Part shown: in pieces, positions 37,449 through 39,672 of the stretch
How the letters are laid out: each line of letters opens with the position of its first letter
How positions within the stretch are numbered: position 1 is the first letter of the stretch
Source of the DNA: a virus
Taxonomy: Duplodnaviria > Heunggongvirae > Uroviricota > Caudoviricetes
Virus record (IMG/VR): IMGVR_UViG_2778261463_000006
Span: 1-61,071 of that record
DNA length: 61,071 bases
Direction: 5' to 3' (one strand)
Program-made: the position numbers and the translations under genes
The notes under the pieces: generated by a model
The model's database searches: none
Seen by the model: the letters and a program-made list of their open reading frames with translations, nothing else
Told to the model about the DNA's origin: nothing

Positions 37449-39463
37449 AAGAGCTGTGCTATGGATCTGTTTGCAGTGGAATTGAAGCCGCGAGTATTGC
37501 CTGGGAACCGTTGGGTATGCGTCCGGCGTGGTTTGCTGAAATCGAGCCTTTTCCATCTGCCGTTCTTGCGCACCGCTGGCCCCATGTCGCCAACCTTGGC
37601 GACATGACAAAACTTGCCAAAAAAGTCCTGGCTGGGGAAATCGAATCCCCTGATGTGCTCGTCGGGGGAACACCTTGTCAGGCATTCAGTATCGCGGGAT
37701 TACGTGGTGGGCTTGATGATGAGCGTGGCGCGCTAACTTTAAAGTATGTGGAGCTTGCAAATGCAATTGACGACAAACGGGCTGAGTCATTTCTCAAACC
37801 ATCCGTTATCGTCTGGGAAAATGTCCCAGGAGTCTTGTCATCGGCAGATAACGCCTTCGGATGTTTCCTTGCCGGATTGGCTGGAGAAGATGCGCCATTT
37901 GAACCAGGTGATCGACCTGAATCAGGAAAAAGTAACGCGTTCTGGCGGTGGGATGGCAAAACCGGTTGCCATGTTCCAAAGTGGCCGCAGTGTGGTTGTA
38001 TTTATGGACCGCAGCGAAAGGTGGCCTGGAGAATCCTTGATGCCCAATACTTCGGAGTGGCACAACGACGCCGACGCGTGTTTGTTGTCGCAAGTGCTCG
38101 AACAGACCTCGATCCCGCAACGGTACTTTTTGAGTTCGAAGGCGTGCGCCGGAATATTGCGCCGAGCAGAGGCGAGGGGAAGGAAACTACCAGATATACT
38201 TCAAACATCGCTATCAGATCTTGCGATGATACAAACATAGTTGCCATGGCACATGGGCAAGGAGGGGCTGAGATAAAAACCGATAATTCGGCACCAACTT
38301 TGACATGTAACCATGAAGCACCAATTGTATTGCTCGTCGACGGTAGAATGCGCCGTCTTATCCCTGTCGAATGTGAAAGGCTGCAAGGTTTTCCTGATGG
38401 ACATACATTGATCCCTACGGAAAAGCGTAAAAAAGTTTCTTCAGATGAACTGGCATACCTTCGCAAAAACTATCCTGATTTGAGCGAAGAAGAGGCCGCG
38501 ATGCTTGCAGCTGACGGACCGCGTTACAAAGCGATCGGCAATAGTATGGCGATACCAGTAATGCGCTGGATTGGCGATCGGATTGCCAAGGCTGCATGTC
38601 GGCAGAAGGAAGGGAGTGAAACAAAAGAGCGAAAAGTTAAACCAGCGGCAGAATTCGAACGGTCCATATTCAAATGGGCTGGTGGAAAATTTGGTGTTCT
38701 GGAACAAATCTTTCGCTATTTGCCAGAAGGGAAGCGCCTGATTGAACCTTTCGTTGGTGGCGGAGCTGTCTTCATGAATGCCGGATACCAGGAAAATCTG
38801 CTAAATGATGTGAATGCTGACCTGATTAACTTTTACAAGACTCTGCAACGCGAGGCGAATTCACTTATCACTCTGGCACATCGTTTCTTCCAGGACTACA
38901 ACACACAGGAAGGATACCTGGCAGTACGGAATGCGTTTAACAAACAAGTCTATGATGATTTACATCGCGCAGCGGCGTTTTTGTTCCTGAACCGACATTG
39001 TTTTAACGGATTGACGCGTTACAACCAGGCCGGTGAGTTCAATGTCGGTTATGGGAAGTATAAAACTCCGTATTTCCCATTACAGGAGATGGAAGCCTTC
39101 CTCGGTGCGGAAGGGCGGTCTGAGTTTGTATGCGGTGATTTTGCAGCGGTGATTGAAGCTTCCGGAGAAGGAGATGTCATCTTTTGCGATCCGCCGTATG
39201 AACCGCTTCCAAATACAGAGGGATTCACGAACTATTCCGGTCATGACTTTAAGTTTGAAGAGCAAAAACGCCTGGTGTCTCTGTTGACGGATGCTCATCG
39301 TCGAGGTGCAAAAGTTCTCATTACTAACAGTGGCGCGCCAAACATCAGAGAGCTTTATCATGACAGTGGCTTCAGAGTGGAACCTCTTTTTGCCAGACGT
39401 TCTGTGTCTTGTAAGGGAGACACTCGAGGTGTTGCTCATGACGTTATAGCCATATTGCTCTAA
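37445..39463 (+). CDS. dmt: Bifunctional DNA methyltransferase: N-terminal C5-cytosine MTase fused to C-terminal Dam-like N6-adenine MTase
   Basis: C5 motifs ([11 protein letters not shown]; [12 protein letters not shown]; [10 protein letters not shown]) then Dam-like motifs ([10 protein letters not shown]; [12 protein letters not shown]; DPPY). Confidence 0.85.
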
Positions 39464-39483
39464 TAAATTTATTAGTGTAATAT
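39454..39483. promoter_or_regulatory. Bipartite overlapping C1 operator pair (Op72-like) at start of tRNA/ban operon
   Basis: ATTGCTCTAATAAATTT overlapping inverted ATTACACTAATAAATTT; palindromic core CTAATAAATTTATTAG. Confidence 0.6.
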
Positions 39484-39643
39484 CGACTCAATGAATCGTG
39501 ATTTATAGAGCGATTTAGCTGTTAGCCGCGACAGGCGCGGCGGCAAGTATGGCGGGGTAGTGACTCCTTCCCCATCATGACGCCGAGTTGCCAGGTTGAC
39601 CATACGCCTAAGTGGCAACACCGAAGTGCGTTACGAGCTTCCA

Positions 39644-39672
39644 GTTTGCCCATCTTCGGGTGGGCGTTTTTT
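39644..39672 (+). terminator. Intrinsic terminator/attenuator in the leader between operator and tRNA cluster
   Basis: gcccatc-ttcgg-gtgggc hairpin followed by TTTTTTT. Confidence 0.6.

What the first reader, a model, noticed from the sequence alone, without database searches (positions are those of the whole stretch)
39454..39672. Palindromic double operator followed by a structured leader and terminator before the tRNA cluster
Two overlapping operator 17-mers form the palindrome CTAATAAATTTATTAG (39454-39483). About 160 nt downstream is a strong intrinsic terminator (39644-39672), with GC-rich structured sequence in between. This could encode a short C1-controlled RNA or an attenuator gating the tRNA-upl-plp-ban operon.
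Basis: seen in the sequence. Interest (0 to 1): 0.4.

Follow-up and report, generated by a model that had tools for sequence, protein, structure and literature searches.

The report
P1 ban-operator leader: DicF-type RNA module
This is the known C1-repressed ban promoter/operator of a P1-like phage, followed by a short structured RNA that ends in a strong terminator and is related to the precursor of the cell-division regulator DicF. Just past the terminator lies an unannotated RNA resembling the bacterial ribosome-rescue RNA tmRNA.

Summary
A perfect C1 operator (39454-39470) overlaps an inverted second one (39465-39481). Together they form the 16-bp palindrome, and a strong intrinsic terminator follows (stem 39648-39665, U7 39667-39673).

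The window is a P1/P7-like phage. In the P1 record the same site is annotated as Oban(Op72ab)/P1ban/P2ban, followed by a "dicF-like region".

The leader does not match DicF itself. Positions 39514-39628 are about 81% identical to a roughly 120-nt multi-hairpin "platform" with a candidate pseudoknot. In lambdoid prophages, including E. coli K-12 Qin, this platform lies just upstream of dicF and is unannotated. In every phage examined it is followed by a different short segment plus terminator hairpin: true DicF, at least 8 variants, or the P1-type version.

Most likely, Pban makes a roughly 180-nt C1-controlled DicF-class sRNA precursor. Read-through supplies the downstream RNA genes, tciABC and ban.

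The operator and the "dicF-like" label are already known. The platform family appears undescribed.

Immediately after the terminator (39675-39856) lies a module found in 293 phage records. It has a conserved 10-codon tmRNA-like tag frame (ANDDLMMVAA) and covarying pseudoknots. I found no tRNA-like domain.

The parts
37445..39463 (+). 3' end of the dmt/dam methyltransferase ORF. Its stop codon lies inside operator a.
   Evidence: ORF list. Annotated as dmt in P1 and dam in P7.
39454..39470 (+). C1 operator Oban-a (Op72a), a perfect 17-mer consensus
   Evidence: P1 annotation protein_bind 'phage repressor C1'.
39465..39481 (-). C1 operator Oban-b (Op72b), 2 mismatches, overlapping operator a to form the bivalent operator
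39455..39483 (+). Promoter P1ban: -35 TTGCTC at 39455-60 and -10 TAATAT at 39478-83. The transcription start near 39490 is inferred. P2ban lies about 17 nt upstream.
   Evidence: Transferred from the P1 record through alignment A1. It is not found by the simple promoter scan because the -35 matches only 3 of 6.
39514..39628 (+). Conserved 'platform' RNA shared with dicF loci. Pa is 39526-39540. Pb is 39541-39585, with a hypervariable tip at 39554-39573. Pc is 39587-39619, with the conserved loop UUGACCAUACG.
   Evidence: Covariance model R1 scores 102.6 bits, E = 4e-26. blastn gives about 81% identity to lambdoid phages. Pair counts are and the Pb stem variants.
39547..39605 (+). Candidate pseudoknot: GUAUGG (39547-39552) pairs with CCAUAC (39600-39605) in the Pc loop
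   Evidence: At pair 40-101 of A2 the counts are UA 25, UG 3, CG 2, and no sequence is unpaired. The P1 allele GCAUGG:CCAUGC versus the P7/window allele GUAUGG:CCAUAC is seen in many P1-like contigs.
39620..39646 (+). Variable 3' segment (candidate seed or linker) between the platform and the terminator. It stands where the DicF body stands in lambdoid loci.
   Evidence: At least 4 versions, including indels, occur among P1/D6-like contigs. At least 10 different cassettes occupy this position in lambdoid phages.
39648..39673 (+). Intrinsic terminator: 7-bp stem with a UUCG loop (39648-39665), then G and U7 (39667-39673)
   Evidence: It is conserved in P1, P7 and D6.
39675..39856 (+). tmRNA-like module, reached in this phage only by read-through. 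Helix GUUUU (39678-82) pairs with GAAAC (39713-17), followed by ACCA at 39720-23. The tag frame GCA..GCC runs 39735-39764 (ANDDLMMVAA), with stop at 39765-67. The stop codon lies in the loop of a helix (39745-49:39773-77). Two pseudoknots follow: 39781-39815 and 39817-39852.
40139..40385 (+). tRNA-Asn(GUU), tRNA-Tyr(GUA) and tRNA-Thr(UGU), the first tRNA genes downstream of the terminator (the tmRNA-like module lies between)
   Evidence: ARAGORN and Rfam.
40964..41084 (+). STnc100-like element upstream of tciA. In lambdoid loci this element directly follows DicF.
   Evidence: Rfam RF02076 scores 38.3 bits, below the gathering score of 47. The same family directly follows DicF in mEp460 and reaches 48.7 bits in L343.

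Best explanation
The region is the early, C1-repressed control point of the ban operon of a P1/P7-like phage, and its first product is a short non-coding RNA of the DicF-locus class.

(1) Shown by sequence and annotation: in the prophage, C1 repressor binds the bivalent operator, which overlaps both -35 and -10 hexamers of P1ban/P2ban, and blocks initiation.

(2) Inferred: on derepression, RNA polymerase starts near 39490. It first transcribes a roughly 115-nt multi-hairpin platform (Pa, Pb, Pc, with a loop-to-internal-loop pseudoknot), then a roughly 27-nt variable segment, then a strong intrinsic terminator with a U7 tail.

(3) Inferred: most transcripts stop there, giving a roughly 180-nt RNA. 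By analogy with DicF, this RNA is then cut (RNase E) to release a short 3' RNA made of the variable segment plus the terminator hairpin and U-tail. That is the standard shape of an Hfq-type base-pairing sRNA. The platform is the conserved, exchangeable 'carrier' and the 3' segment is the phage-specific 'seed'.

(4) Inferred: a fraction of polymerases read through. Only these express the tmRNA-like RNA, the tRNAs, tciABC and ban. The terminator therefore sets the ratio of short RNA to operon mRNA.

The same terminator can also end transcripts entering from the upstream uhr-hrdC-dmt operon, which would make the module a dmt 3'-UTR RNA as well, just as DicF is a ydfC 3'-UTR RNA.

The target of the P1-type RNA is unknown.
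For: - Identity of the site: 95-96% identity to P1 and P7. The P1 record annotates Obanab (Op72ab), P1ban, P2ban and a 'dicF-like region' at the matching positions, and P7 annotates Op(ban).
- Operators are non-random: 9 found against 0.26 expected.
- Terminator: dG -12.8 kcal/mol, z = -3.15.
- Homology to lambdoid phages: 39526-39623 matches lambdoid phages at 76-83%. In mEp460 the matching element ends about 24 nt before a true DicF, which scores 76.7 bits against RF00039. In E. coli K-12 Qin the element lies in the unannotated 340-nt gap between ydfC and dicF.
- One copy per phage: a covariance model built from 30 sequences finds exactly one copy in each phage locus searched that carries the element (38 of 40 sources; none in HK022 or D6). 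The window hit is 39514-39628 at 102.6 bits.
- Structure: 94.7% of cells pair, against 27-52% when the partners are slid. Five pairs change on both sides. The Pb stem exists in at least 6 complementary versions.
- Not coding: 1-nt indels in Pb do not disturb conservation downstream, so the element is RNA, not protein.
- Modularity: at least 10 different segment-plus-hairpin-plus-U-run cassettes follow the same platform. Among P1/D6-like contigs the segment before the terminator also varies, including indels.
- Published biogenesis of DicF: early Rho-independent termination followed by RNase E cutting at the 5' end, with RNase III producing an alternative 3' end on read-through RNA (PMC9438474).
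- Need for read-through: no promoter-like site lies between the terminator and the tRNAs.
Against: - No transcript data were available. The start site, termination efficiency and processing are all inferred.
- Rfam's DicF model does not match the window at E <= 1, so the 3' RNA is not DicF.
- No convincing target was found. Complementarity to the ftsZ leader is 6 nt at most, though the same crude test also fails for real DicF. The best site within the phage (12 nt at 60570) lies inside an ORF and has about a 0.18 chance expectation.
- In the minimum-energy fold of the window's own RNA the 'seed' is partly paired (P0/Pd). Those helices are not supported by covariation, however.
- Most compensatory changes trace to one or two lineages, so the covariation is suggestive rather than decisive.
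- Why a roughly 115-nt platform should be kept at about 81% identity merely to carry an sRNA is unexplained.
Confidence: 0.6

Rival explanations
1. The platform is a cis-acting processive antiterminator, working like HK022 put RNA. The nascent folded RNA would modify RNA polymerase so that it reads through the terminator right behind it, and through the roughly 1.8 kb of untranslated RNA genes beyond, without any phage protein. The short RNA would then be a by-product.
For: - In every locus the platform sits directly upstream of an intrinsic terminator that lies between the early promoter and all downstream genes. In cdtI phage the order is cI stop, PL-like promoter at 2673-2700, platform at 2989-3107, terminator cassette, then the early-left genes.
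- In P1-like phages the tRNAs, tciABC and ban have no promoter-like site of their own after the terminator.
- From my own knowledge, not checked here: operator-constitutive (bac) mutants express ban in lysogens, so read-through would need no lytic phage protein.
- The loops and bulges of the platform are conserved in sequence, not only the stems (UUGACCAURCG, GGCGGUAAGUAUGGC). This is expected for an RNA that contacts a protein such as polymerase.
- The platform stays constant while the terminator cassettes are swapped.
Against: - The covariance model of the platform finds nothing in the HK022 immunity region, which holds putL and putR, at E <= 1.
- The architecture differs: a junction of several helices plus a pseudoknot over about 115 nt, against two stem-loops over about 70 nt in put (PMC9378689).
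- Only one copy is seen per phage locus. No second copy appears on the rightward side in the loci that include it.
- DicF RNA ending at its own terminator is abundant according to the literature, so termination after the platform is certainly not abolished.
Confidence: 0.15
2. The terminator is simply the end of the upstream uhr-hrdC-dmt operon and a transcriptional insulator. The platform would be a recombination relic from a lambdoid dicF locus with no function of its own in P1-like phages.
For: - The dmt stop codon lies only about 185 nt upstream, on the same strand, with no other terminator in between.
- The P1 ban operon also carries an STnc100-like piece, the other flank of dicF loci, 1.3 kb further on. 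This is consistent with a mosaic origin.
- D6 keeps the terminator and downstream leader but lacks the platform.
Against: - The platform is kept at about 81% identity between P1-like and lambdoid phages whose flanking sequences are unrelated.
- It occurs as two alleles in P1-like phages whose differences keep the Pb stem, the Pb base pair and the pseudoknot pair complementary.
- A promoter whose transcripts meet a strong terminator after 180 nt is hard to explain if that RNA has no use.
Confidence: 0.12
3. The platform is a ligand- or factor-sensing attenuator (riboswitch-like) that decides between termination and read-through.
For: - The layout is a folded multi-helix domain with a pseudoknot directly upstream of an intrinsic terminator.
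- Unpaired nucleotides are highly conserved.
Against: - No alternative pairing between the platform and the terminator is conserved. Terminator cassettes with unrelated sequences follow the same platform, which an expression platform of the usual kind would not tolerate.
- There is no match to any Rfam riboswitch.
Confidence: 0.06
4. The region encodes a small protein (for example the 47-aa ORF 39577-39720) rather than an RNA.
For: An ATG-initiated ORF exists at 39577-39720 in the window.
Against: - The ATG is absent in P1 itself.
- The ORF runs through the terminator.
- Relatives differ by 1-nt and 3-nt indels and by compensatory stem changes.
- No frame is open across the family.
Confidence: 0.02

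Closest known systems
Op72 / Oban bivalent C1 operator with promoters P1ban/P2ban of phage P1 (GenBank AF234172 annotation)
   Same: The sequence, position (overlapping the dmt stop codon), spacing and orientation are the same. The operator and promoter bases are identical to P1 and P7.
   Different: Nothing of substance differs. This part is already known.
dicF locus of lambdoid prophages (E. coli Qin: ydfABC-dicF-dicB), DicF sRNA, Rfam RF00039
   Same: - The roughly 115-nt structured element upstream of dicF is the same (about 81% identity; covariance model 102.6 bits in the window and 139 bits in K-12).
- The layout is the same: element, then a short segment, then a terminator hairpin with a U-run, then read-through into downstream genes.
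- An STnc100-like element lies further downstream.
- The downstream protein is annotated as a division inhibitor in both cases (dicB; tciA 'by homology').
   Different: - The 53-nt DicF body is absent; there is no RF00039 match. A different segment and hairpin stand in its place.
- The module sits about 25 nt after a C1-controlled start site, rather than in the 3' UTR of ydfC more than 1 kb from the DicA-controlled promoter.
- About 1.3 kb of RNA genes is inserted before the STnc100-like piece.
HK022 putL/putR antiterminator RNA
   Same: It is a folded nascent RNA near the start of an early phage operon, upstream of terminators that must be passed without a dedicated phage antiterminator protein.
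   Different: There is no detectable sequence or structure relationship. The architecture differs, there is a single copy, and the activity is untested.
3'-UTR/leader-derived Hfq sRNAs made by early termination plus RNase E cutting (SroC, MicL, CpxQ; review PMC9438474)
   Same: The proposed biogenesis is the same: an early intrinsic terminator, an upstream structured region, and release of a 3' fragment.
   Different: In those cases no roughly 115-nt sequence-conserved carrier shared across unrelated phages is known.
tmRNA (ssrA), including two-piece/permuted forms and the phage tmRNAs of mycobacteriophages and Bacillus phage G (PMC4131195). This comparison is for the neighbouring module 39675-39856.
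   Same: - A 10-codon frame starts at GCA after UAAAU and ends in (A/V)A-stop. The E. coli tag is ANDENYALAA and the window's is ANDDLMMVAA.
- The stop codon lies in a hairpin loop.
- Pseudoknots lie downstream.
- The 5' part aligns with ssrA nucleotides 1-31.
   Different: - The module is only about 180 nt.
- No T-arm or acceptor 3' end was found, and there is no G3-U70 pair.
- ARAGORN does not call it, and it falls below the gathering score of every Rfam tmRNA family.
- The PK1 region is about 29 nt shorter.

Membership tests
P1 C1-repressor operators | 17-bp asymmetric consensus ATTGCTCTAATAAATTT | tested here: met
   39454-39470 has 0 mismatches and 39465-39481(-) has 2. The window holds 9 sites with up to 3 mismatches, against 0.26 expected.
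P1 C1-repressor operators | Bivalent type: two overlapping, inverted 17-mers that cover a promoter | tested here: met
   The two sites overlap by 6 bp and form a 16-bp palindrome. They coincide with the annotated P1ban/P2ban hexamers of P1.
P1 C1-repressor operators | Binding by C1 (modulated by Bof) and repression in the lysogen | not testable with these tools
   This rests on the P1 literature and annotation only (plus my own knowledge).
Intrinsic (Rho-independent) terminator | G+C-rich hairpin immediately followed by a U-run | tested here: met
   A 7-8 bp stem with a UUCG loop, then G and U7. dG is -12.8 kcal/mol and z = -3.15.
DicF RNA (Rfam RF00039) | Match to the DicF covariance model (sequence plus terminator hairpin) | tested here: not met
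   No RF00039 hit at E <= 1 in 38000-43500 or at E <= 10 in 39600-40140. Genuine DicF in mEp460 scores 76.7 bits.
DicF RNA (Rfam RF00039) | Location directly downstream of the conserved upstream element of dicF loci | tested here: met
   Covariance model R1 hits 39514-39628. The same element lies 13-24 nt upstream of DicF in K-12 and mEp460.
DicF RNA (Rfam RF00039) | Base-pairing with ftsZ mRNA and inhibition of division | tested here: inconclusive
   Complementarity is 6 nt at most, and the crude test does not recover the known DicF-ftsZ pairing either.
DicF RNA (Rfam RF00039) | 5' end made by RNase E; Hfq dependence | not testable with these tools
   Literature for DicF only (PMC9438474).
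HK022 put antiterminator RNA | Two adjacent stem-loops of about 70 nt with the conserved put sequence | tested here: not met
   Model R1 finds no match in the HK022 immunity region at E <= 1. By eye only short shared strings are seen. The architecture differs.
HK022 put antiterminator RNA | Factor-independent suppression of downstream terminators in cis | not testable with these tools
   This needs transcription assays.
tmRNA (neighbouring module 39675-39856) | Short tag reading frame without a start codon, resuming at GCA and ending in hydrophobic residues plus A-A-stop | tested here: met
   All 120 loci carry 10 codons plus a stop, giving 18 different peptides and 32 nucleotide versions. Variability by codon position is 3 > 1 > 2 (7.28, 5.67, 4.01). 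The other two frames contain stops. Caveat: the search pattern fixed GCAAACGA.
tmRNA (neighbouring module 39675-39856) | Pseudoknots flanking the tag frame | tested here: met
   In PK2, stem 1 occurs in at least 5 complementary versions and stem 2 in 4 (GUCG:CGAC, CCGA:UCGG, CCAG:CUGG, CCAA:UUGG). PK3 stem 1 covaries.
tmRNA (neighbouring module 39675-39856) | tRNA-like domain: acceptor stem with G3-U70, T-arm, 3'-terminal CCA | tested here: not met
   ARAGORN calls no tmRNA. There is no T-arm in the module. A 5-bp helix GUUUU/GAAAC is followed by an internal ACCA only. No complementary acceptor piece exists in the window.
tmRNA (neighbouring module 39675-39856) | Score at or above the gathering threshold of an Rfam tmRNA family | tested here: not met
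   The best score is tmRNA_permuted RF04321 at 24.1 bits, against a gathering score of 47. None of 20 phage loci reaches a gathering score.

The most novel reading that the evidence does not exclude
The terminator at 39648-39673 separates two mobile RNA modules that are so far unannotated.

(a) The 'platform' is a new class of structured phage RNA shared by P1-like and lambdoid phages. It may govern what happens at the terminator behind it, through processive antitermination or directed processing.

(b) The RNA reached by read-through (39675-39856) may be a functional, minimal tmRNA analogue lacking a tRNA-like domain. It would carry its own degradation-tag frame (ANDDLMMVAA). The module is present in hundreds of P1-, T1-, N4- and Vi01-like enterobacterial phages, always next to their tRNA genes. 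Such an RNA would let the phage re-programme or hijack ribosome rescue and protein tagging during infection.

The probability given is for reading (b): that the module takes part in trans-translation or in titrating its factors.
Probability: 0.3. Interest if true: 0.85.

Novelty: new variant of a known kind. Interest (0 to 1): 0.5.

Why it matters
For P1 biology, the leader explains how one C1-controlled promoter can give two outputs, a short regulatory RNA and a long operon. It also shows that the start of the ban operon is built like the dicBF early-left operon of lambdoid prophages.

For sRNA biology, it shows that DicF is one member of a set of interchangeable 3' cassettes, all carried behind one conserved and so far unannotated structured element. 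That element is also present in E. coli K-12 between ydfC and dicF. This makes directly testable what determines DicF processing, and how polymerase reads through to dicB.

The neighbouring tmRNA-like module, if functional, would be the first phage tmRNA analogue in enterobacterial phages, and it would have an unusual minimal architecture. It may bear on why phages carry tRNA clusters.

Tried and rejected
- The P1 genome paper (Lobocka et al. 2004) could not be read, either by PMC id or by DOI. What it says about the 'dicF-like region' is therefore known only through the GenBank feature table.
- Literature searches for Op72, for P1 sRNAs and for phage tmRNA-like RNAs gave nothing relevant. The HnrS paper concerns an unrelated sRNA.
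- The single genome-contig scan, with a 16-mer, returned almost only chance matches; one real hit was E. albertii.
- RNAduplex against the ftsZ leader was uninformative, because real DicF is not significant in that test either.
- Searches for targets inside the phage gave only chance-level matches, both for the 3' segment and for the Pb loop.
- I first took the MFE helices P0 and Pd of the P1-type RNA as part of a five-way junction. Natural variants with indels and uncompensated changes do not support them, so I dropped them for P1-like phages. P0 is supported only in lambdoid loci, and even there it is missing in three recombinant versions.
- tRNA-like, riboswitch and self-cleaving-ribozyme readings of the platform found no Rfam or ARAGORN support.
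- For the tmRNA-like module I looked for an acceptor or T-arm partner in cis and in trans and found none. An apparent pairing of the 5' end with the A-rich stretch after PK2 was rejected, because that stretch is loop 3 of the well-supported pseudoknot.
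Full report
**What the window is.** The 1.15 kb around the finding is 95-96% identical to phages P1, P7, RCS47 and other Punavirus genomes. In the P1 record (AF234172) the aligned positions carry four annotations:
- the divalent C1 operator Obanab (formerly Op72ab);
- the sigma-70 promoters P1ban and P2ban;
- a misc_feature "dicF-like region" (record 68791-68892, roughly window 39581-39683);
- tRNA-Asn and tRNA-Thr.

P7 annotates the same operators and says they control the tRNAs and ban. Upstream, the dmt/dam methyltransferase ORF (37445-39463) ends inside operator a.

**The observation.** ATTGCTCTAATAAATTT at 39454-39470 is a perfect C1 consensus. Its inverted partner at 39465-39481 has two mismatches. 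Between them they create the 16-bp palindrome CTAATAAATTTATTAG. Nine consensus-like sites occur in the window against 0.26 expected.

The terminator (stem 39648-39665 with a UUCG loop, then G and U7 at 39667-39673) is found by the scan. It folds at -12.8 kcal/mol, z = -3.15.

The folding energy of the leader as a whole is no better than shuffled sequence. "Structured" therefore has to be shown by comparison with relatives.

**What the leader is.** Rfam finds no DicF and no other family here. A sensitive blastn of 39484-39680 nevertheless matches, besides P1-like phages, about 45 lambdoid phages at 76-83% identity. These include mEp460, cdtI and Stx2a/2c-converting phages. The match covers only 39526-39623.

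In those phages the element lies in the early-left operon downstream of the cI/DicA-type repressor gene. In mEp460 it ends about 24 nt before a bona fide DicF (RF00039, 76.7 bits), which is followed by STnc100 and dicB. In E. coli K-12 Qin it sits at L250:2251-2369, inside the 340-nt unannotated gap between ydfC and dicF.

So the P1 "dicF-like region" is homologous to the upstream part of the DicF precursor, not to DicF.

**Anatomy of the platform.** A scan of IMG/VR gave 120 loci with 67 distinct versions. The alignment shows these helices:
- Pa: CCGCG/CGCGG.
- Pb: a base CGGY/RCCG and a top stem with a hypervariable tip.
- Pc: GUUGYCA/UGRCAAC plus AGG/CYU, with a conserved 11-nt loop UUGACCAURCG and a 3-nt bulge.
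- In lambdoid phages only, a closing helix P0: GGUUGUGGC/GCYRCAAC.

On a 30-sequence alignment 94.7% of cells pair, against 27-52% when the 3' partners are slid by 1-3 columns. Five pairs change on both sides. The Pb top stem occurs as GGGG/CCCC, CUGGG/CCCAG, AGGGG/CUCCU, UGGGGY/RCUCCA, CAGGUG/CACCUG and GGGU/ACCC.

GYAUGG in the internal loop of Pb is complementary to CCAURC in the Pc loop. The variable pair is U-A in 25 sequences, U-G in 3 and C-G in 2, and it is never mismatched. P1-like contigs carry either the GCAUGG:CCAUGC allele (P1 type) or the GUAUGG:CCAUAC/CCAUGC allele (P7 and window type). This is a candidate pseudoknot.

Most of these changes trace to one or two lineages, so the support is good but not decisive.

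One-nucleotide indels in Pb leave the downstream sequence conserved, which excludes a protein-coding explanation.

A covariance model (R1) finds exactly one copy in each locus that carries the element (38 of 40 sources searched). The window scores 102.6 bits at 39514-39628.

**A carrier with swappable cargo.** In every lambdoid locus the platform is followed within 10-30 nt by a different short segment plus a G+C hairpin and U-run. These are DicF itself and at least eight other versions, one of them tandemly duplicated.

In P1-like phages the corresponding stretch (39620-39646) also varies, including indels...GCGUUACGAGCUUCCAGUUUG...GCGUAACGAGCUUCCAUCCAGUUUG...GAAAUGCGUAACGAGCUUACAUCCUGUUUG, and a D6-like ...ACCGCGAGUGGGAUAUUUG. 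These changes are not compensatory for the P0/Pd helices seen in the minimum-energy fold. I therefore read 39620-39673 as the P1-type counterpart of the DicF cassette: a variable segment, a terminator hairpin and a U7 tail.

**Mechanism proposed.**
- Shown by sequence and annotation: C1 at the bivalent operator blocks P1ban/P2ban.
- Inferred: after derepression a roughly 180-nt RNA is made and mostly terminated. By analogy with DicF it is processed to a short 3' sRNA. DicF is made by early termination followed by RNase E cutting, with RNase III producing an alternative end on read-through RNA (PMC9438474).
- Inferred: read-through transcripts supply everything downstream, because no promoter-like site lies between the terminator and the tRNAs.
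- The same terminator can also end dmt-operon transcripts, making the module a 3'-UTR RNA as in Qin.
- The target is unknown. My crude complementarity tests were uninformative or at chance level.

**Rivals.**
- *Antiterminator.* A put-like processive antiterminator is attractive on context. The platform always precedes a terminator that separates an early promoter from its genes, and its loops are conserved in sequence. It is not a member of the put family, though. The model finds nothing in the HK022 immunity region and the architecture differs (PMC9378689).
- *Plain operon-end terminator with a relic platform.* This is contradicted by the conservation of the platform and by its allele structure.
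- *Riboswitch-type attenuator.* This is unlikely, because unrelated terminators follow the same platform.
- *Small ORF.* This is excluded by the indels.

**Origin of the arrangement.** The window also has an STnc100-like element at 40964-41084 (38 bits, below the gathering score), just upstream of tciA. In lambdoid loci STnc100 directly follows DicF and overlaps the start of dicB. The P1 ban operon thus looks like a dicBF-type operon. In it, the DicF cassette is replaced, and about 1.3 kb of RNA genes is inserted, along with the antisense plp/upl genes.

**What lies just behind the terminator.** The 466 nt between the terminator and tRNA-Asn were searched against phage genomes. The first roughly 180 nt match 293 records at 70-85% identity. 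These records come from very different phages:
- Vi01-like Ackermannviridae;
- N4/G7C-like Gamaleyavirus;
- T1-like phages;
- Erwinia phiEa2809.

The match is almost always unannotated and lies upstream of, or inside, the tRNA cluster on the same strand.

After UAAAU, the sequence contains GCA AAC GAU GAU CUG AUG AUG GUA GCG GCC UAA, which reads ANDDLMMVAA-stop. E. coli tmRNA encodes ANDENYALAA.

In 120 IMG/VR loci, all versions keep exactly 10 codons plus a stop. There are 32 nucleotide versions and 18 peptides, for example ANDDVVLMAA, ANEEMYLAVA, ANDEQFLAVA and ANDNEFKVAA. The third codon position is the most variable and the second the least (7.28 and 4.01, with 5.67 for the first). The other two frames are closed. 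One caveat applies: the search pattern fixed GCAAACGA and ACCA.

The stop codon lies in the loop of a covarying helix. Two pseudoknots follow. In the first, stem 1 occurs in at least 5 complementary versions and stem 2 in four (GUCG:CGAC, CCGA:UCGG, CCAG:CUGG, CCAA:UUGG).

The 5' part aligns with ssrA nucleotides 1-31, and the resume and stop codons fall in the same alignment columns.

In T1-like phages a TTGACA-17-TAGATT promoter lies about 10 nt upstream of the module, which suggests an independent transcript there.

I could not find a tRNA-like domain:
- ARAGORN makes no call.
- No Rfam tmRNA family reaches its gathering score in the window or in 20 other loci.
- There is no T-arm in the module.
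- The window holds no complementary acceptor piece.
- The only extra T-arm lies in a hairpin cassette after tRNA-Thr (40388-40475).

The tmRNA Website paper lists phage ssrA only in mycobacteriophages and Bacillus phage G (PMC4131195). Three literature searches found no description of this module.

I report it as a strongly supported observation of unknown function. It could be a tmRNA analogue lacking a tRNA-like domain, a two-piece tmRNA, or a decoy for rescue factors.

**Verdict.** The operator, the promoter and the "dicF-like" label are already in the P1 annotation. New here, as far as I could establish:
- the leader is the conserved carrier element of dicF loci rather than DicF;
- its structure, including the candidate pseudoknot;
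- its modular cargo;
- the tmRNA-like module it gates.

Noticed in passing
window 39675-39856 (tag frame 39735-39767): An unannotated tmRNA-like module lies directly after the terminator. It has a conserved 10-codon frame (ANDDLMMVAA-stop) after UAAAU, with the stop codon in a hairpin loop, and two covarying pseudoknots. Its 5' part aligns with E. coli ssrA nucleotides 1-31. It matches 293 phage records of P1-, T1-, N4/G7C- and Vi01-like types, always beside tRNA genes. No tRNA-like domain was found, and neither ARAGORN nor Rfam calls it.
   Followed up: partly
window 39858-39937 and 40388-40475; also L252, L260, L307 and others: Long hairpin 'cassettes' with conserved arms ACAACAGGUAAGRGC ... 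GUGCUCUUWCCGUUGUG bracket variable inserts and flank the tmRNA-like modules and tRNAs in many phages. The one after tRNA-Thr (40388-40475) encloses UUUUGCGAC, a short hairpin and a T-arm (GAGGGUUCGAAUCCCUA). That makes it a tRNA-like body without an anticodon arm, reminiscent of a tmRNA tRNA-like domain alone. Rfam gives only spurious microRNA-precursor hits on the first cassette.
   Followed up: partly
window 40964-41084: A partial STnc100 (RF02076) match at 38.3 bits, below the gathering score of 47, lies just upstream of tciA. In lambdoid phages the same family directly follows DicF and overlaps the dicB start (L003:3171-3380; L343 at 48.7 bits). The P1 ban operon thus carries both flanks of a dicF locus.
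   Followed up: partly
L250:2251-2369 (E. coli K-12 MG1655 1649250-1649368): The platform element is present and unannotated in K-12, in the 340-nt gap between ydfC and dicF of the Qin prophage. It scores 139 bits with model R1.
   Followed up: yes
window 40219-40305: An extra 87-nt tRNA-Tyr(GUA) lies between tRNA-Asn and tRNA-Thr. P1 and P7 lack it, while phage vB_EcoM-Ro157c2YLVW has it. Its Rfam tRNA score is low (35 bits).
   Followed up: no
window 39554-39573, compared with P1 L001: The Pb tip is the one hypervariable patch in an otherwise 98%-identical 700-nt leader. P1 has CUGGGCCUAGUCCUCCCAG, while P7 and the window have CGGGGUAGUGACUCCUUCCCC. All versions, including the lambdoid ones, keep a CU-rich loop (UCCUU, CUCC) resembling an anti-Shine-Dalgarno sequence. 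This loop may be a second seed.
   Followed up: partly
L006:2600-2760 (phage labelled Actinobacillus vB_Apl-pPE4): The sRNA cassette behind the platform is tandemly duplicated: two copies of CCCCGCCACAACAACCCAUGUUGAUUACCUUUUGGCGGGUAUC...CCGCCCUUUUU.
   Followed up: no
L009 (phage D6) 1300-1560 and L408-type contigs: D6 keeps the terminator hairpin, the tmRNA-like module and the tRNAs, but a different hairpin stands in place of the operator and platform. Other D6-like contigs (L408) have the platform with a lambdoid-type Pb and no C1 operator directly upstream. This shows module shuffling at this site.
   Followed up: partly
L253:1673-1751 (phage Bp4): The 79-nt 'tRNA-Cys(ACA)' annotated and called by ARAGORN 12 nt after the tmRNA-like module looks atypical. 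Its acceptor has U3-G70, its anticodon arm is odd, and Rfam gives no tRNA hit at gathering score. It may be a tRNA-like partner rather than a decoding tRNA.
   Followed up: no
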